The translations under genes were made by a program, and so were the position numbers. This document shows positions 33,193 to 64,000 of a stretch of 64,000 nt of DNA, in pieces. The number at the start of each line of letters is the position of its first letter. Positions within the stretch are counted from its first letter, which is position 1. This DNA is from Amoebophrya sp. A120 (Eukaryota > Protista > Dinoflagellata): contig CAJINV010000004.1 of assembly GCA_905178155.1 (NCBI GenBank), forward strand, positions 3,443,320 to 3,507,319, given 5' to 3'. Below the pieces are notes generated by a model. The model saw only the letters and a list, made by a program, of their open reading frames with translations. It searched no databases and was not told the origin of the DNA.

Positions 33193-34407
33193 TCAGAGAT
33201 TTGTCGAAATTATCGTAGCCGTGCGTGTATTGTTATCAAGTTCTTCTTTCAGTGGGGGCTGTGGCCATGCTATCTGACTGTCGTCCGCACTACGCCCACC
33301 CGTTTCTATTTCGTTGACAAGGGTCGGGCCATCGTAAACCTCCCCAAGGCATGCGCCTACAGCTTCTGCGGCTTCCTCGGTTCGGATCCACGCCCCGGCC
33401 CCCTTTTTCGCGATCTTCTTCTTGGTGATAGAAAGGGATATTTCTGCCTCCACCAGTCTGTGGTCACTCTTGTGATACGTCTGTCCCCGCACCTGGAACG
33501 CACGCACGTACCCCCGGTGCTTCCACGAGACAAAAGTGTGGTCGTACTCGCGCCGTGGCCTCGCCCCCTTCCAAGCTCCCTCGAAAGTGTACCGCCGCAC
33601 CCACGGTTTTTTGAACAAGGACGAAACGTCGACCATCTCCGCTGCGGCTGCCAGTGCCTGGAGCCTGTCAGCGTTGTCGGTCCGGCGCGCGAAACCAGCG
33701 GAGAGGCCACAAGGACCTACTGTAAACGGAAGCCCGGCCTCCTGTAGTTCCCGCTGCGGGCCTCCCGCCATCTCAGCATTAAAATCTCCTACCGCAATCA
33801 CGATGTCCCTGCCACTGTGATTGGCGATTTTTCTCGTTGCTTTTTCCCAGAAGCTGTCTTTATCCCCGATGTCTGCCGCGTTCGTTGGAGCGTAGCAGCC
33901 GTGAAGATGGACTTTTTGTCCATACGGGGTCCGGAGGGAAATTCGGCCATGTCGCCCGCACTGCTCGTTGTCAAAGTCAACAACTTCGATGCTGTGGTGG
34001 ACGACAAACAATACCCCCCCGACCGGCGTTCCGGAACTATTTAGCCACGCCCCGCCTCCATACAGAAGATACTCGTCAACACGCTCACCAGTGATCCACT
34101 CAGTCACTCTGCTCTCCTGTGTCACCACAACATCGAGTTTTCTGGATCTAGCGTCCTTGATCAAGCATTCCATTTCCACCGTTCGTGTCCCGCTGTCCTC
34201 CCTCTTGCCGAGGGTAAGCACGTTCCATGTGCCCAGCCTCAGCTTCTTTTTTGCGGAAGCGTGCGCGCCGCGTCGGCCTCGGGAGGGATCCTCCCTCCCG
34301 GCAGGCTTCGTCCTGCTGCCGCCTACAGCAGGGCTCCTCCCTGCTGTGGTGTCGTAAGTCGCGGCGCCTTCAGCTGCGGCTTGGTTAATTTGGGATCTCG
34401 CTTGCAT
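33193..34407 (-). mobile_element. APE-like (L1-EN/EEP) endonuclease ORF of an RTE-like non-LTR retrotransposon, without reverse transcriptase
   Basis: Motifs GTWNV, TQES, YAPT, GDFNA, YDH and SDHRLV in canonical order; ORF stops ~80 aa later; no RT motifs downstream. Confidence 0.9.
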
Positions 34408-35049
34408 CTTCAGTTCGTACTACTCTGTCCAGATTCCAACAACCTCCACTCCACCTCGTATCGTACGTTGAACACAAGTCGATCGCGTTTCTTCCGCGAA
34501 GGATAGAGCCCCGGGATTATGTCTTTTCACTGAGCGCAAGGTAGCAGGTGCACAACAGTCCAGCTCTTCTCTTCTTCTCTTCGATAACAATACTAATGCC
34601 TTCAATACAGCAACGCGGTTGGCGGCCACGAGCTAGGTCAGGTCCATCAACTAATCTCTCAGATCTTCTTTCCAATCAGCCCGACCCGGTCAGTCTGCTA
34701 CCAGGACGTTGCAGCTCGTGTAGATACAGCTGAGCAGACTCGAAGATCAGACCCACACTCGACTTTCTAAATACCCTGCACAGAGTCCACTTTCGCCCCG
34801 TTTGTTGGTTTTCCAAACGTGTTCTGCTTCCCACCTCCTCCTTCGGTAACTACCGCAGCAGTTAGTGTGGCGCAAAAACCAGTCTCTCAGTAGATCGAAT
34901 TCCGAGCGAACTGCTCCAGTTTCTCCTCGTCACCGTCAAAAAAGTACTATCTTACACGTGGCGCTCGAGGTACTGCAACTCACTCTTCGTAGTTCACGTT
35001 CTTGTTCAAAGTTTATCTTCCAAATTCAGACTGCAATAAACAACTTCAT

Positions 35050-43122: not shown

Positions 43123-46100
43123 TCATCGCCACAGATCCCACAAGTCCCAGGCAGCGAATTTTCGATGATTCCCATTGCTGTTAGTGGTCCAATCGTAGCG
43201 GTTATATTCGATTTTCACAGAGCATTCTTGTTCCTGTAACAACCTCACCAGCTTCTCTCGTTTTTCCCCCCGCGTGTGCCTGGTCAGTAGGGAGACGAGT
43301 CGCTGCTGGTCGGAAAAATTATCATTATTATATGGGGTTTCAAGAACGTCCTGATCTTGTCCCACCTCCCCTGCGCTGGAAGTTGTATCCATCCTGCTTG
43401 GTGTACCAACATCCTCGTGCTGTGAGTTGTATCGGTAGTTCCTGGAGGTTGTGGTCGTGAAGTCCCTGCTGTACCAGTGAAAAATCTTGCTCAAGTACAA
43501 AACCGCGGACTTCGTTTATCAAAAGGAAAAATCCCCCCACCCCATATCGAAATGGAAATCTGTGATGCGGGATTTGTGTACACAAATCGGCTTTGTCTTG
43601 CAATAGAGGACTGCAGACAGATACGCAGCCGGATTAAGGACGTTTTGGTGTAGGCGCCTAGCAAGGTATGGACATTCTCTGTAGGCCAGACAGCATCACA
43701 AATTGCCTGCATAACGCGGCGGGGTTTTTTTATTTGTCTTCTTGCAATACAGAGACGATTTGTGACCTCAAATCAGCATGACAAATTTTGAGAAGTATCC
43801 CGTTCTGGTATGGGGAGGGGGGATTTTTCCTCTCAATATCGTTCCCTCGTTCTCCGAAACTGCCAAATTTTCCTCTTGCTCCAGAAACGCCATCGACACA
43901 ATCCGGAGCTCCTCGTCATATATGCATCACAAACTTGATGTCTGGGTTCTTCTGGAAGAAGTTGTAAAAATGTGCGGAATAAACTTGTAATGCTTAGCTA
44001 GCAAGTGTATCGATGCTGTCATGTTGTATCGATTGCGCTGGAGAAGCCTAGGGGTTTCTTTGTGACGCAAAAGAACTGTAAACTATTTTGAAGATGCGTA
44101 TGTTGTATAGGCAAAGCGTAGGAGCGGGAACTTTTTTTGTCATAAAGATGCGGAAGTGTGGTCTATGCATTGCTTGCCAACATCCGCATGTTGCTACTAG
44201 CATGACAACTTTCATCCAGAGGACCCGCGACACATATTTGCCGTTGCTACCGCACGCTTCTGCAGAGAACCACTTGATCGGTGGGCAGCTGCGGGCACTA
44301 TAAGAGTGCAAAACTTAAACTTCTCTTTCTGTTTCTCATCCTCCCAGTTATTTAGAAAAGTTGTGATGCTGCAGGAGCAGCAACGGAAGCAGTGCCACGA
44401 ATGAAGCTTCCGCACTACGAATCTTCCATATTGTACGCATTGCAATAGCATTTGGCCCGCTACTTCCGGAACTTGTCATGCAAACAGTGGCAGTGTCAAA
44501 GCCAAGACTTCTAGTTCTAAGAGCATCTGGAAAAATTTTGCATGAAAAAAGGAGACAAATACTTCCACCAGGAGAAAGACCGTCAAATGCTGTTGTGCAC
44601 TCTGATAGGCGCCGCAGTTTAGCGCAAAGTGCAGCCGGTACTCGCCGCGAGGAAGGATGAACTTTTCGTTTTTCATATCAAGAAGAAAAATCCCCCCTCC
44701 CCATATCAAAACGGAAATCTGTGATGCAGATTTGTGGCCACAAATGAGGTTTGTCATGCTACAAGGGAAAAGATGCGGACTGTAGTGCTGGGCGGCGTGG
44801 GAAGGCCTTGCATCTGCAGCATGACAGGGGCCAGCTGGAAATGGGAAACAGCATGACAAATTGCCTGCACACGAGGCCACACCACGGCTCTTGGCCTTCT
44901 TGCAATACACGTCGGTTTGTGTACTCAAATACAGCATCACAAATTTCGTTTCCGACATGGGGAGGGGAGATTTTTCCCCTTGATATTTCAAGCGGTCGGG
45001 CGAAAAGGGCGGCTTCATCTGGATCGCCCCCGGCAGGTTTCCCCGAAGAATCCCGTTCTCGATTTCGTGCAGGGAAAAGGGCTATAAAGTGCAAATATGT
45101 CTGGGTCTGGAAAGCTGTAATGCTAAAAGTGAATGATAGACGCACTGCAATACGCAGCTACGCATGACAAATTTTTTGGCTGCCATGTCTTACGTATTCC
45201 GCATGGCAAAGAAAGGCAAGCTGCGTTTTTGCATGACAGGTAAGAGGGCCTTTTCGTGCCTATGCAACACAGATTCTCGAGTATGACAAACCTGCATTCT
45301 TCCAGACCCAGACATTTTTGCATTTGATAAGGGCAGTAGCGGTTTGATAGCATAATTATCTTGCTGGGTTGTAGTTGTACTATGACTGCTAAAAATATTC
45401 TCCTCTGATGTTGTCCCAGAAATAAATGCTCCGGCTGAGAAGGAGAACTGGTACTTTACAGCGGCGAAAAAATGCAACCGCCCGAGATCTATCAAATGTA
45501 AAAATGTCTGGATCTGGAAGAATGCAAGATTTGTCATGCATATTTCTCATGACCCATGATTGTCTGTGATGTATGCCCTACCATCACAGGTTTTTAGAGC
45601 TCTTCCTGATGCACCTTCCGCATGAAAAATGCCCTGTCCGTGTAGCACAAATTGTACCCCTCTTGCTGGTCATGCAATACAAATTTTTTTAGAGTCCAAA
45701 AACAGCATGACAATTTGCAATCTTCCAGACACAGACATTTTTGTAGTTGATAAGATCGAACTCGGCTATCCCAGCCTCGGCGAACGCGTGGAGGGTGAAA
45801 CGGAAAAGTGCCCTTCTACCCCCGGTAAGACAGAGAGTTTGCGTTGAAAAGTTTCATCTACACGGAAACTTTTTGCATTGCGCGCGGAACGTGCGCTGCA
45901 TCTTGCTGAAGAATCAAAGCGAGTGAAGTAGATCGATACGTCTTTAGCATGAGACATTATACTGCTTAATACATTGCGCCGCTTCTTGACAACACAGATA
46001 ATTGTCGCTAGAATGGAGATTCTGGGTCGAAAATTATCTGTGATGCTGCTCTGCGCGGCATGGCAAATGTTCATATCCCACGACCGGGCAGCACATTTTT

Positions 46101-58806: not shown

Positions 58807-59068
58807 TATCAAATGTAAAAATGTCTGGGTCTGGAAGAAGGCAACTTGTGATGCTGAACTTGGATTCTAAAAAAATCTGTATTGCATGAGCAGCAAAGGG
58901 AACGCAATTTTTGCTACGCGGAGAGGGCATTTGTCATGCGGAATAGGCATCGCGAAGCCCTCAAAAAATCTGTGATGCTAGGGCATGCATCGCAGACATC
59001 ATGGCCAATGCAAAACATGCATGACAAGTCTCAGAATCTTCCAGACCCAGACATTTTTACATTTGATA
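58807..59068. mobile_element. Family A element upstream of the ATG (5' UTR or intergenic)
   Basis: TSD GGGAG/GGGAC; near-perfect TIR. Confidence 0.93.
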
Positions 59069-59786
59069 GGGACGAGGACGATACAATCTTTATTACAGCT
59101 GCGGGATTACGTCGCGTTATTCTTGTGAAGTGGTGTAAAACCTTCGGGAACGCCTACACTTGCATCACGATCATCAAAGTCGACAAGTATAGCGTACAGG
59201 AAAGAACTTAAGTAAAAATATCTCCCTCTGATCCACTACCTCTCTCATCACGAACTCCTTTTACAACAACGACTCACACGGGCCAAGACGCGTTACGCTC
59301 ACTCTGCTCTCCTCCCAACGTGCGTCGTGTTTCTTCACGCACAGTCGCGAAACATCAAACTACAGGCTATTCCCAAGTAGAAAAGCTGCATTTACGCAGC
59401 ACCAAACGGTGGCTGCTGGCAGTCCACTCGATCTTCGATTTTTTAGCGGTTCTTATGATATAAAAACTATGTACTTTCGAAGTAAGTTCGACGCGTCTTC
59501 GTGCGGCCAGCAACTGCGCCTTCTACAGGGTGCATTGAGCCGGATCTTTTTGACATCATCTCAACCGGGGTTTTTGTTCTTAAATAGGGCTGAAATCTGA
59601 AAAGCCTCTCTACGTGTTGAGCCGTGAATACTATACTGATCAGGCTTCTGACGAGGACCATCGATTATACCGCACATAGTGATTCTGCAGCCGCACGACG
59701 AGAATCTTCCTCACATCATGACCTTTTCCCGCAATCAAAGTGATCATCCAGCTCTGCATGTGGACCTAAGTGCGCAGCCGTCTGTC

Positions 59787-62700
59787 CTAAGTCCCCCGGG
59801 TCGCGCCGTGACCGTAAATGTTTCTGCCCTGCAATTTTAAAGCGTTGATAACTTCGGCCGGGCGCACGGTGGTGCGGCCCTGAAATTTGGTCAGGATCCA
59901 CAGCTGTTCGACGGTTTTTTCCAACCAGGACTGGAACATGAGCCGAAGTTTTGTGAGGAAAAATTTCCCCTCCCCATACCGACCAGGACATTTGTGATGC
60001 CGGATTTGCGTAGACAAATCGACTTGTATTGCCAGAAGGCCAAAAGACGCAGCTGTGGCCTGAATTGTAGGCAAGTTGTGATGCTGTTTCCCTGTTCCAG
60101 TTGCCTCCTGTCATGCTGAAGATGCAAGGCTTTGTTCCCACGCCAGCCAGCATTACAGTCCGCATTCTTTGCCCTCTAGCATGACAACATGATTTGTGGC
60201 CACAAATCAGCACCACAAATTTTCGTTTTGATATGGGGAGGATGGATTTTTCCTTACGATACGAATCGGATGGTACACTCCGGAGCCGATCCGCTTCACG
60301 CCGCCCCGCCGCGCGAGCCGCCGGATCGCGCTCTTGCACAGGTTGTTCTCGATCACCTCTTGGAGGACGGGGCTTTTCTTCATATTTTGTCCACTCCGCT
60401 GGTCCAGCTCCTGCATCGCGTTCAGGTCTTTGCCGCTCAGAAGCGCCTTTTGCAAGGGATGAAATCCGGCACGGTAGGCATCGTTTTCGTTCCTCCATTT
60501 CTTCAGGTAGAGCTTCACTTCCTTCCATTTTTCTTTATCTAATTCTTCCCCGGTGCAGTCGCACATTTCCTGCTCGAACTTCATTTTGCTCCCCTTTCCC
60601 CACGGAGTTTCGGTGGGGCCGTCCTTGTTCTGCTTCACCCGGATCTCCTCCTGGGCCGCAAACTGCAGCTGGTAGGTGTTTTTGTACATGTACTGCAGCA
60701 TCTTGCCGAAGGTGGCCAGGTACCACATGCGGTAGCTGAAGTACTGCACGCTTGTCGTGCATTGAGCCCCGCCGGTCGCCTTCTCGAACTTCCCCGACGT
60801 GTAGAACTCGAGCGCCCCGAACGCCGTCGTGCGCAGAACGGGCACCGGGGTGGTCTGGATGCGCGTACAAAACTGCTCTTGCTCCTTGGACCGGTTCTCC
60901 GGCTCTGTGACGTAGCCCAGCATCAGACTACTTCGAAAAGGTAGGTCGACTGTGTCGTGGCCCACGGGCTGCAAACTCGTGACCGCGTTGAGAAATCCGG
61001 GGTTCGGGTAGCGGTCCGGCACCACGATTTCCCCCGAAGCAGCATTCTGCATGTTCTTGTAATAGCCACCCTGGTAGGAGGAAGTGTCGTGAAACAGTCC
61101 GTAATCCGGCTGGTGCACGACTCCGCCGAGCAACTGCAGGCCGGCGTGCGGTCCGAGTGGTCCTGCGGCACCGAAGAGCGAGTCACTGCTCTTCCCGCCC
61201 ATGGCACCCAGCTTGGTGCCCTGCGCAAAGGCCTTTTTGGACTGAAAGTTGCCACCCAGCGTGGAGGACGCAGCTGCACCTTTTTTCTTGGACGCAAAAG
61301 GGCGCGAGCCGCGGCCGAAGGGGTCCGCGAAGAGAGAGGACTGTTCCGTACCCGGCGTGCTCTCGGTGCCGCAAATGTGGAACGACTCGGAGTCACAGGA
61401 CCCCGCGCTGGCGCCGCTGCTCGCAAGGTAGCTCGAGGCCGGCGCGCGGCGGGGAACTCCGCTGGTGACGCTGCTGCCTCCTGGGTTGCCAACGCCGCTC
61501 GTCGCGAGACCATCGTTAGGAAGCTGGTCGTGTCGACGCCCGCCGTTCTCGTAGTACATGGGCTCGCTTATGAGACAGAGAAAAGAAGACAGGGCATAAG
61601 TATCTGTAATGCGAAGCATGAGTAGCAGGAAAATCTGTCATGGGCGCGACCCCATAGCACGCTGCTTGGAGGGATATGGATATGCAGTGCAGAAGCAGAT
61701 CTTTTAATTCATTTCTACTATATACAAATGTGCCCTGCCCGCTTTTTTCTGTGGGATATCGGCGGACGACGAGACCGCCGACGGTGTGGCCGCGTTAATA
61801 TCTCCGTGACTTCTGCCGCCGAACCGCTGCTCCTCCTCTTCCTCTATCAAGTGCAAATATGTCTGGGTCTGGGAGAGTGTAAACTTGTCACGCAGCTTTT
61901 CCATGGCCCATGAGGCCTGGAATGCGGGACTTAGCATGACAGACCCTGCGAGGTCTCTGCCATGCCTATCCTGCATGGGAAACTCCTTCCCAACTTGGTC
62001 GAAAGTGGACAGCTTTTGGCACTCATGCAACACAGATTTTTGTATGCTTCAGATTTACCATGACAAGTTACCATCTTCCAGACCCAGACACTTTTGCATT
62101 TGATATCCTCATCCGTGCAGCACTGTTCCCGCCCGCTGTCCGGATCCTCCAATCCTGGCGCGAGGATGAAACCGCGGCCGGCGCTATTTTATCGCAAGAA
62201 AAAACTGTTTCACTGTAAACTTGTAATGCAGAAACTGCAGCTGAGAAGTGTTTGTCTTGCTACACATGCAAGACACTAGATTTTTAACTGTGTTTTCCTT
62301 TAAAAGTCTCGCATGCCAAGTTTTCTTTGTCATGTGTAACAAACTTGTGATGCAAAACTTGCAAAATCCTTACAGTGAAACACTACTTTTTTCGTACGAT
62401 ATACTGGGTCGTTTTTTCGCTCGCTTAGACGAACACAACGCCTCCTCGTCATCATCATCGCCATCCTGAAGTAGAGAGCAGCGCCAGCGGCCCGATCTTC
62501 TACTACTCGGCCTCTTTCCAGCACCACGACCAAGCTCGCGACGAACAGAAATAGAGTTCTTCGATCCCACTAGACTGGCCTCCGCGACCTGTGAGGCCGC
62601 TGCTCTACTTGCGGAGGTAGACGCTCGTCCTTTGTTGATCTTCAGATTTTTGAAGGCAGTAGCAGTACCACTGTGGAGGTCCAGCCCCGGAGCAGCAGGG

Positions 62701-63964
62701 ACACGACCCCGGGAAGAAGAAGAAGAGGCAGAAGCACGACTCCCCCGCCCGGTCACCATCTTGAACTCTCCGCGGCTCCTTCTGGAAAAGCTATCCTCTC
62801 GCGAGGCGCCGCCGCCCCCGCCCCCGCAATTCGAGACCGGCGTCCCGTCACTGTCTGCGCCGCCGCTGGTATCAAAATGAAAAGCCCCCCCCCCGCCGCA
62901 CAATCAAGTGGAAGCCTGTGCAGGAGCAGCGCGACCTGTGTACACAGATGAGGTTTATTGTCCTGCCGAGAGGGACCAGTGCGCGAAGTGGAGGTCCTAA
63001 GCGTAGTACGCAGAGATGTTTTTGTGCTAGCTTAGCATAGCAGAGGCTGCGGCCTGCCCCAGCATTAGAAGTACAAATCGCCTGCAAAATACAATCATGC
63101 AGCGGGCTCTCTGGATTTGCCCGCCTGCAAAAAACTTCGTGGCAGTTCAGTATCACGAAGCTTTCGGAGCGTAAATAGTACTTTAACTTTTTCATCACAA
63201 TGGGGACGAGCAAGGGGGGGTCCACATATTTTCCCCTCAATAACTGGCGAGGAAACCGCCCGGCGGGTTGCCGCCTATCCTGAGTAAAAACGTACCCACA
63301 CCAGAGTTGTAATGCAGATTTGCAAAGACAGGAAGACTTGTAACGCGCATCCCCATGAGAGCCATTTCCAGTCGTGTTTTGGAATTTGTGATGCCGTGAA
63401 CAGGATGAGCAGATGAATCTGTGATGCGGCTGCACTTGCTAACCTGCACTACACTGCATAGCGCACCTTGTCATGCGTGACTCACAAAACTCCTAGGTTT
63501 GTGTTGCAAAATCTCCATCCTGACTTTGGTGTGGGTACGTTTTTACTCAGGATACCGCCGAGCATGTGTTCGCGCCGGTAGGACCCGTCGCTCGCGAAAT
63601 CGTCCGTCGGATCGTTGCCCAGGCCCAAGTGCCGCGCACTGTCCGAGGAATATTCCCCCTCGGAATTATCGTAGCTGTTTTCGCTGTGCAGCTCTGGACG
63701 AACTGCATTTTTCATTCGTCCCAGGCTGCTCTTGTTTCCCATTTGTAGTCCCGATTGCAATTCATCGCCACAGCGAAGATCTCGTTGTAGGGACGATGAC
63801 ACGTTATTTGCTGTTGTTCCTATAGTCCCTCGTCCTAGTGAACAACTACTACCATGGCGCCCTTGATGCTCGCAGTTCTCTGCGCCAGGGCTGGGTCTCA
63901 TGGTCTCTGAAGCCCCTGCTCGTGCTGGCTCGGGTACAGCTCCCCCTTTGCTGGCCGCCTTCCG
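59787..63964 (-). CDS. >839-aa protein with a C-terminal divergent histone H4 fold (5' end outside window)
   Basis: 2520 exonic nt are open across six introners; ends LCKSAIRRLARRGGVKRIGSGVYHPIR|LMFQSWLEKTVEQLWILTKFQGRTTVRPAEVINALKLQGRNIYGHGATRGT*, colinear with H4. Confidence 0.9.
59949..60261. mobile_element. Introner family C, inside the H4 fold
   Basis: TSD CGAAG/CGAAT; inverted relative to copies at 24889 and 44676. Confidence 0.92.
61569..61758. mobile_element. Introner family E-like
   Basis: TSD TCGCT/TCGGC; frame restored. Confidence 0.8.
61845..62105. mobile_element. Introner family A
   Basis: TSD TCCTC/TCCTC. Confidence 0.95.
62190..62401. mobile_element. Introner family D
   Basis: Sister of 839-1050; TSD TATTT/TACTG; frame restored. 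Confidence 0.9.
62870..63242. mobile_element. Introner family C-like
   Basis: TSD GCTGG/ACTGG; frame restored. Confidence 0.82.
63276..63554. mobile_element. Introner family B
   Basis: TSD CCGCC/CCGCC. Confidence 0.97.
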
Positions 63965-64000
63965 TATCACACAGAAAAAAGCAGGCATTTGTAATGCAAA
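63965..64000. mobile_element. Introner family E (partial, runs off the window)
   Basis: TATCACACAGAAAAAAGCAGGCATTTGTAATGC matches the TIR at 29580. Confidence 0.85.

What the first reader, a model, noticed from the sequence alone, without database searches (positions are those of the whole stretch)
59787..63964. Giant protein ending in a complete, divergent histone H4 fold
Seen: after removing six introners, one frame of at least 839 aa ends in a domain that aligns gap-free to histone H4. AIRRLARRGGVKRI is exact, followed by Y..R, LE, T..R.TV, V..ALK.QGR..YG.G, with a heavily substituted central helix. The basic H4 tail is replaced by >750 aa, mostly G/S/R-rich low complexity, plus a ~150-aa ordered-looking segment just before the fold. 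An introner splits the fold, so ORF callers see only half of it. Known: canonical H4 is ~102 aa and extremely conserved, dinoflagellate-lineage histones are divergent, and CENP-T has a long disordered arm plus a C-terminal histone fold. Inference: an undescribed H4-derived chromatin scaffold, possibly a kinetochore (CENP-T-like) linker or a host-nucleus effector.
Basis: partly seen in the sequence, partly recalled or inferred. Interest (0 to 1): 0.85.

Follow-up and report, generated by a model that had tools for sequence, protein, structure and literature searches.

The report
Giant histone H4 with fused domain
This marine parasite transcribes and splices a gene for an 861-residue protein that ends in a divergent histone H4 fold behind a long flexible arm and a conserved, likely folded domain of no recognised family; it likely pairs with histone H3 on DNA and would be a rare case of a core histone carrying its own extra domain.

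Summary
The gene is real. RNA-like contigs (four runs, one sample) skip the introners as modelled, and one contig joins arm, domain and H4 fold. The intron in the fold is 318 nt, not 313. The 839-aa model equals residues 23-861 of a public 'unnamed' Amoebophrya A120 protein. New here: a paralogue (807 aa, A120) and an orthologue (502 aa, A25) share the layout of G/S/P-rich arm, conserved ~190-aa domain (46 invariant residues) and H4 fold. The fold is H4-derived (33-37 of 73 identical, no gaps; PDB hits E~1e-15). It is not CENP-T: ordinary H4s score higher on that model. The basic tail is gone, and 0-2 of 7 H2B-binding residues remain. No protein has a signal peptide. Best reading: a 'macro-H4' variant that likely pairs with H3, binds DNA and carries a built-in adaptor domain. 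H3 pairing and function are untested. Divergent, elongated Amoebophrya H4s were mentioned in 2015, but without extra domains. The scan had not noted this family before.

The parts
63555..63964 (-). coding exon, P0001 aa 23-159 (arm); preceded by a further introner that runs off the window (63965-64000)
   Evidence: (X1-4, X3-17)
63271..63554 (-). introner 1, 284 nt, 5-nt direct repeat, long terminal inverted repeat
   Evidence: (I2)
63244..63270 (-). 27-nt mini-exon
   Evidence: match to P0001; contig lengths fit
62866..63243 (-). intron 2, 378 nt, 4-nt direct repeat, weak inverted repeat
   Evidence: zero depth at 63008-63174 in X1-X3
62402..62865 (-). coding exon (arm, with basic clusters that may be NLSs)
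62185..62401 (-). introner 3, 217 nt, 2-nt direct repeat
   Evidence: (I9)
62106..62184 (-). 79-nt coding exon
61840..62105 (-). introner 4, 266 nt, 5-nt direct repeat; same family as the element at 58807-59068
   Evidence: (I1, I5)
61759..61839 (-). 81-nt coding exon; holds the start of a short TP-x-x-SS motif found in all three family members
61564..61758 (-). introner 5, 195 nt, 3-nt direct repeat
60262..61563 (-). 1302-nt coding exon: end of arm, conserved domain, linker and first half of the H4 fold, with no stop
60450..61016 (-). conserved pre-fold domain, P0001 aa 559-747; 46 residues invariant in 3 of 3 proteins; no family found
60262..60341 (-). H4 fold, first half (helix 1, loop 1, start of helix 2)
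59944..60261 (-). introner 6, 318 nt, 4-nt direct repeat, 53-nt arms 72% complementary; splits the H4 fold
   Evidence: (I3)
59787..59943 (-). last coding exon: rest of helix 2, loop 2, helix 3, C-terminal strand and stop
59445..59786 (-). 3' untranslated region covered by RNA-like contigs (ends at 59445-59492)

Best explanation
This is a transcribed, spliced gene for a lineage-specific histone H4 derivative ('macro-H4') of Amoebophrya, which likely dimerises with an H3-type histone and binds DNA through its fold, and likely uses its conserved ~190-aa domain as a built-in protein adaptor at specialised chromatin sites. Shown: the gene model, transcription, the H4 origin of the fold, and the three-part layout in three proteins from two distant strains. 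Inferred: nuclear location (basic clusters, no signal peptide); H3 pairing (the hydrophobic core is kept or conservatively changed); DNA contact (helix 1/loop 1 arginines and R78/T80 kept); a folded domain. Also inferred: it does not make an ordinary octamer with a standard H2B, because the H2B-facing residues are replaced, so it would sit in an H3-H4-type particle or one with co-diverged partners. The ancestral tail with its modification sites is replaced by the domain and a variable flexible arm. In a genome that also encodes DVNPs, it would mark or scaffold particular loci rather than package bulk DNA.
For: Spliced contigs join arm, domain and fold. The paralogue is 52% identical over 319 aa. 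The orthologue was found with the domain alone, E=5e-10 among 1.84 billion proteins; domain alignment score 189 against a maximum of 50 in 500 shuffles. The fold is 61-72% identical within the family, above the 48-51% average for Amoebophrya orthologues (PMC7789003, passage). The three form one branch, 100/99, on a long stem. The best 60 shown of 91 PDB sequence hits are all H4. DNA-contact positions are 8-9 of 14 identical and H3-facing core 14-15 of 26, mostly hydrophobic swaps (residue classes recalled). Four-helix-bundle residues listed in PMC9659345 are kept 0/7, 1/7, 2/7. The domain has 30% large hydrophobic and 12% aromatic residues against 17-19% and 5-6.5% in the arms, and reaches pLDDT 69-79 over about 80 residues.
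Against: No protein-level evidence, and all RNA-like data come from one sample; the public model probably rests on similar data and is not independent. The loss of the bundle residues is not clearly beyond general divergence (P=0.05, 0.19, 0.36). The domain is only 33-34% identical between strains, below the genome average. The structure model is weak: mean pLDDT 55, the other four models 38-42, and the H4 part at 33-54 with 7-8 A rmsd to H4. A simple fold index did not separate domain from arm. Some H3-facing substitutions are bulky (F61W, V70W/Y/F). The adaptor role has no direct evidence.
Confidence: 0.55

Rival explanations
1. Kinetochore linker by convergence: an H4-derived fold pairs with a centromeric H3 or CENP-W-like partner, and the long arm reaches the outer kinetochore as CENP-T does.
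For: Same coarse layout as CENP-T, a long unstructured N-terminus and a C-terminal histone fold (PMC9252888, passages). Amoebophrya expresses NDC80 and histones together in one spore type (bioRxiv 2025.04.10.648098, passage). A review names kinetochore assembly as a possible job of dinoflagellate histones (PMC6723414).
Against: No CENP-T homology beyond what any H4 shows. Full CDK sites number 0, 0, 1. Arm length varies from 222 to 558 aa and few motifs are shared. The CENP-T description read mentions no folded domain between arm and fold.
Confidence: 0.15
2. A non-nucleosomal histone-fold subunit: the fold is only a dimerisation handle in a transcription complex (TAF6-like) or a non-nuclear complex (like Plasmodium ORP1/ORP2).
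For: The H2B-facing surface and tail are lost. Large alveolate proteins with histone folds act outside chromatin (PMC5172368, search listing only).
Against: The DNA-binding helix 1/loop 1 block of H4 is kept almost exactly in 3 of 3. There is no Pfam TAF or NF-Y hit at E<=1. ORPs are NF-YB/YC-like (listing), not H4-like.
Confidence: 0.12
3. The working product is a short H4, made from an internal start (Met770 would give 92 aa) or by clipping a precursor; the upstream part is a separate or disposable module.
For: Contig depth is higher at the 3' end in X2-X4. A Met lies just before the fold in P0001 and P0003.
Against: 4 of 4 contigs run unbroken through that site and at least 300 nt beyond it, and their upstream ends differ (61563+, 61196, 60680, 60786), as 3' bias would give. 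P0002 has no such Met. The domain is fused in frame in 3 of 3 genes.
Confidence: 0.1
4. Effector delivered into the host nucleus, like the bracovirus H4 with an extended tail.
For: The parasite grows inside the host nucleus (PMC9478091, passages). A precedent exists (PMC9145170, passages).
Against: No signal peptide or hydrophobic segment in 3 of 3. Bracovirus H4s stay close to insect H4, whereas this fold is under 51% identical to standard H4. The host dinoflagellate packs little DNA in nucleosomes (PMC6723414).
Confidence: 0.05
5. Gene-model artefact: two genes fused by assembly or annotation.
For: Short-read contigs do not prove a single molecule.
Against: A 1302-nt exon carries arm end, domain and half the fold without a stop. 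DNA-like run X5 covers 60200-61871 in one piece without differences. The same fusion is in two other genes, one from another strain.
Confidence: 0.02

Closest known systems
Canonical histone H4 (PDB 7wlr_B, 1id3_B, 1aoi_B)
   Same: Gap-free fold over residues 29-101, exact helix 1/loop 1 block, C-terminal YG motif; E~1e-15.
   Different: 5-8 times longer; 33-37/73 identity; no K5/K8/K12/K16/K20 tail or basic patch; H2B-facing residues replaced; extra conserved domain.
Divergent, elongated H4 variants of dinoflagellates, Amoebophrya and Perkinsus (PMC4751559; PMC6723414)
   Same: Same lineage; four very divergent Amoebophrya H4s lacking K20, 'many elongated', were noted.
   Different: That paper says the elongation is not due to extra domains, and the review describes the extensions as often K/R-rich. 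Here the arms are about neutral and a conserved domain is present. I could not see the figure with lengths, so overlap with those four sequences is unknown.
macroH2A
   Same: [quoted passage not shown]
   Different: H2A rather than H4; its domain is C-terminal, a macro domain, and animal-specific. No Pfam macro hit here.
CENP-T
   Same: Long unstructured N-terminus with a C-terminal histone fold.
   Different: The fold here is plainly H4; CENP-T_C score is below cut-off and below that of ordinary H4; few CDK sites; extra folded domain.
Amoebophrya introner elements (PMC7789003)
   Same: Inverted repeats with 3-5 nt direct repeats at non-canonical junctions; 5 of 6 introns here have 3-5 nt direct repeats.
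   Different: Nothing new; intron 3 has only a 2-nt direct repeat.
Bracovirus CvBV-H4
   Same: H4 with an extended N-terminus in a parasitic setting.
   Different: Viral, close to insect H4, enters host octamers; no folded domain is described in the passages read.

Membership tests
Histone H4 (by descent, variant) | Gap-free homology to the H4 fold, closest to H4 among solved structures | tested here: met
   33, 34, 37 of 73 identical; best 60 shown of 91 PDB hits are all H4, E~1e-15
Histone H4 (by descent, variant) | DNA-contact residues of helix 1/loop 1/loop 2 and hydrophobic H3-facing core | tested here: met
   8-9 of 14 and 14-15 of 26 identical, most others conservative (residue lists recalled)
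Histone H4 (by descent, variant) | Forms a dimer with H3 | not tested
Canonical H4 | ~102 aa with basic tail (K5, K8, K12, K16, K20, basic patch) | tested here: not met
   0-1 of 8 tail positions kept; lengths 502-861 aa
Canonical H4 | Four-helix-bundle residues D68, Y72, E74, H75, D85, Y88, R92 (PMC9659345) | tested here: not met
   0/7, 1/7, 2/7; the 38 other distinct H4 folds keep 3-7 of 7
CENP-T | CENP-T_C fold above Pfam cut-off and closer to CENP-T than to H4 | tested here: not met
   no hit, 14.2 and 11.8 bits against cut-off 28.1; ordinary H4s 28.9-35.5
CENP-T | Long unstructured N-terminal region | tested here: met
   G+S+P 35-41%; pLDDT about 30
CENP-T | CDK-regulated Ndc80-binding motifs at the N-terminus | tested here: inconclusive
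   full CDK consensus 0, 0, 1; minimal S/T-P 4, 13, 8; the motif itself was not modelled
CENP-T | CENP-W partner and kinetochore location | not testable with these tools
   no genome held
macroH2A | H2A fold plus macro domain | tested here: not met
   fold is H4; no Pfam macro hit at E<=1
TAF6 | N-terminal TAF histone fold plus TAF6_C HEAT domain | tested here: not met
   fold is C-terminal; no PF02969 or PF07571 hit
Secreted effector | N-terminal signal peptide | tested here: not met
   highest 15-residue hydropathy in the first 60 aa is below 0 in 3 of 3; unconventional secretion not testable
Known folds (pre-fold domain) | Structural match to a solved domain | tested here: inconclusive
   fold searches were filled by the H4 part and the model is weak
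Amoebophrya introner | Terminal inverted repeat, 3-5 nt direct repeat, spliced out of mRNA | tested here: met
   one of six has a 2-nt direct repeat

The most novel reading that the evidence does not exclude
The giant H4 builds a new kind of chromatin particle. Its own conserved domain packs onto the remodelled H2B-facing surface and stands in for H2A-H2B, so H3 plus macro-H4 wraps DNA without an octamer at centromeres or other special loci of a DVNP-bearing genome. These giants may be the main H4s of the organism.
Probability: 0.15. Interest if true: 0.9.

Novelty: new variant of a known kind. Interest (0 to 1): 0.7.

Why it matters
[quoted passage not shown] A conserved H4-plus-domain fusion in a basal dinoflagellate would be a second case, and the first on H4 that my searches found. 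What histones still do in dinoflagellates, whose DNA is packed largely without nucleosomes, is an open question (PMC6723414). This family gives a handle on it: a unique domain for antibodies, ChIP and pull-downs in a cultured organism with a compact genome. It also shows a blind spot: Pfam finds nothing in the full 861-aa protein at E<=1, so domain-based histone surveys miss it.

Tried and rejected
Raw-read runs X7-X9 laid only 5, 1 and 424 reads, almost all on introner ends, so they say nothing on transcript starts. No holder is on record as RNA; X1-X4 are RNA by guess and by behaviour. No whole genome was held, so the organism's other histones (short H4, H3, H2A, H2B, CENP-W) could not be counted. 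The full-length AlphaFold model was useless (pLDDT 33). Fold searches against PDB, PDB-wide and viral libraries gave only H4/histone-like or generic helical matches over the C-terminus, Z<=4.7, and barely tested the pre-fold domain. The domain had no match in Pfam, NCBIfam, PHROGs or PDB sequences. The Atlas gave short phage-capsid clusters at 0.87 with low recognition; rejected as weak. Metagenome scan: 1 of 124 pattern hits passed, but L001 reads as an ATP-citrate-lyase-like gene (my reading of the translation, not a database call) that shares one 8-residue motif; rejected as chance. Viral scan: 0 of 43. Searches at 156-541 aa (42 hits) and 30-442 aa (11 hits) found no further protein with the domain; apart from P0003 all matched only the H4 part. 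Absence in other Syndiniales is not shown. No spliced-leader relic was found in the gene. The gene ids were not found in the supplements held for PMC9478091 and PMC6176090, so stage of expression is unknown. Earlier scan notes: none by sequence or place; two by words, unrelated. Rows dropped: P0058 (no anchor), P0008 (indel) and duplicate cores.
Full report
GENE MODEL. The region is on the minus strand and is cut by repeated introns with terminal inverted repeats and short direct repeats, the pattern described for Amoebophrya introners (PMC7789003, passages). Four runs guessed to be RNA (X1-X4, one sample, one study) hold 50-61% of the region's words, and two others hold about 90%. Laid on the window, contig X1-1 (2419 nt, no mismatches) joins 62861-62402, 62184-62106, 61839-61759, 61563-60262 and 59943-59447. 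X2, X3 and X4 also skip the 318-nt intron inside the fold. X1-X3 have zero depth at 59167-59333 and 63008-63174, while X5 is continuous there, so X1-X4 behave as spliced RNA. The first two junctions were not displayed; they follow from direct repeats, contig lengths and depth bins. The joined frame is 839 aa and is identical to residues 23-861 of P0001, a public 'unnamed protein product' of Amoebophrya sp. A120.

IS THE FUSION REAL? One 1302-nt exon carries the end of the arm, the domain and half the fold with no stop. All 4 of 4 RNA-like contigs pass unbroken through the site where a short H4 could start (Met770, 60383). Depth is higher towards the 3' end in three runs, but the break points differ, and contig depth cannot show starts, so a minor short transcript is not excluded. 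Raw-read runs did not cover the gene.

FAMILY. A search of long proteins found 2 hits among 1465 candidates: P0001 and a paralogue, P0002 (807 aa, A120, another contig), 52% identical over 319 aa. A full HMMER search of 1.84 billion representatives with the domain alone found 3 proteins; the third is P0003 (502 aa, A25; E=5e-10). All three end in the H4 fold. Domain identity is 50% between paralogues and 33-34% between strains; fold identity is 72% and 61-62%. Average orthologue identity between strains is 48-51% (PMC7789003), so the fold is well constrained and the domain is moderately so. Forty-six domain residues are invariant, including W, Y, F, C, G and P. The arms (558, 511, 222 aa) are G/S/P-rich, about neutral, and share only short motifs. 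On 72 columns the three form one branch (100/99) on a long stem; the two A120 copies are sisters (96/91 in one tree, 92/40 in the other). The trees hold only H4s, so they do not test H4 against TAF6 or CENP-T. No further member was found; this does not show absence in other Syndiniales.

THE FOLD. It aligns without gaps to H4 29-101 with 33, 34 and 37 identities of 73. The best 60 shown of 91 PDB sequence hits are all H4. Pfam finds nothing in P0001 at E<=1, and only sub-threshold CENP-T_C in the relatives; ordinary H4s score higher on that model, so it is no sign of CENP-T. With residue classes recalled from nucleosome structures, DNA contacts are 8-9 of 14 identical, the H3-facing core 14-15 of 26 with mostly hydrophobic swaps, and the tail 0-1 of 8. 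Of the seven residues that PMC9659345 lists for the H4 four-helix bundle (passages), 0, 1 and 2 are kept, against 3-7 in 38 other distinct H4 folds; this is not clearly beyond the general divergence (P=0.05-0.36). Loss of tyrosines at this interface goes with unstable nucleosomes in trypanosomes and Melbournevirus (PMC10450195, passages).

THE DOMAIN. It has about 30% large hydrophobic residues, against 17-19% in the arms. AlphaFold on a three-sequence alignment gave mean pLDDT 55, with 69-79 over about residues 653-732 (two long helices around short strands); the other four models scored 38-42 and the H4 part was poorly modelled. Fold searches returned only histone-like or generic matches to the C-terminus. 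Sequence libraries gave nothing. It is probably folded, but its fold and function are unknown.

MECHANISM. Shown: expression as RNA, splicing, architecture, conservation and H4 origin. Inferred: a nuclear H4 variant that pairs with H3 and touches DNA, has traded its modifiable tail for a domain and a flexible arm, and probably does not join a standard octamer. The simplest role is a locus-specific scaffold, as macroH2A is for H2A. Confidence 0.55. The rivals are a convergent kinetochore linker (0.15), a non-nucleosomal histone-fold subunit (0.12), a short or clipped product (0.10), a host effector (0.05) and an artefact (0.02).

WHAT IS KNOWN. Marinov and Lynch (PMC4751559; section 10 and passages read; supplement files 1 and 13-18 not searched; figures not visible) report four very divergent Amoebophrya H4s, none with K20, many such variants elongated, and state that elongation is not due to extra domains. 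Their length figure may include members of this family. PMC6723414 (section 9) describes long, often K/R-rich N-termini in dinoflagellate histones. [quoted passage not shown] Other papers seen: PMC9252888, PMC9145170, PMC9478091, PMC13693241, PMC6482013, bioRxiv 2025.04.10.648098 and 2024.02.09.579734 (passages; bioRxiv supplements are closed and could list these genes); PMC12005148 (term search, no hit); PMC6176090 (supplement search only); PMC5172368 (listing only). Searches showed no description of a 500-860-aa H4 with a conserved domain; subscription papers are mostly outside the library.

VERDICT. Observation confirmed with small corrections; interpretation partly supported. A real, conserved, apparently undescribed giant H4 variant family with a fused domain: a new variant of a known kind. 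Interest 0.70.

Noticed in passing
P0007 (unnamed, 304 aa): Another long-armed divergent H4 without the conserved domain. It shares 3 of the family's 12 derived residues and groups with it weakly (86/81, 94/91), with a long-branch warning.
   Followed up: partly
P0043 (423 aa, named Histone H4.1 in Yarrowia): Divergent H4 behind a ~320-aa acidic low-complexity arm that ends in a near-normal H4 tail; long-armed H4s may have arisen more than once.
   Followed up: no
P0040, P0041, P0036, P0042: Environmental proteins with H3 and H4 in one chain (both orders) or H4 with long C-terminal extensions; they may be viral doublets or read-through calls.
   Followed up: no
window 63515-63554: About 400 raw reads of X9 match only this introner end and run on into another sequence; X4 has a similar loose end. 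This is an expressed element elsewhere that shares the terminal repeat.
   Followed up: no
window 58807-59068 and 61840-62105: Two copies of one introner family in opposite orientation, 71% complementary over 223 nt.
   Followed up: no
window 50062-51228 (-): 389-aa frame with a weak RING finger match (zf-RING_2, E=3e-4, below cut-off).
   Followed up: no
window 33196-34419 (-): Exo/endo/phosphatase domain (E=2e-6), possibly from a LINE-type element.
   Followed up: no
window 44479-45081 (-): DUF547 match (E=4e-6).
   Followed up: no
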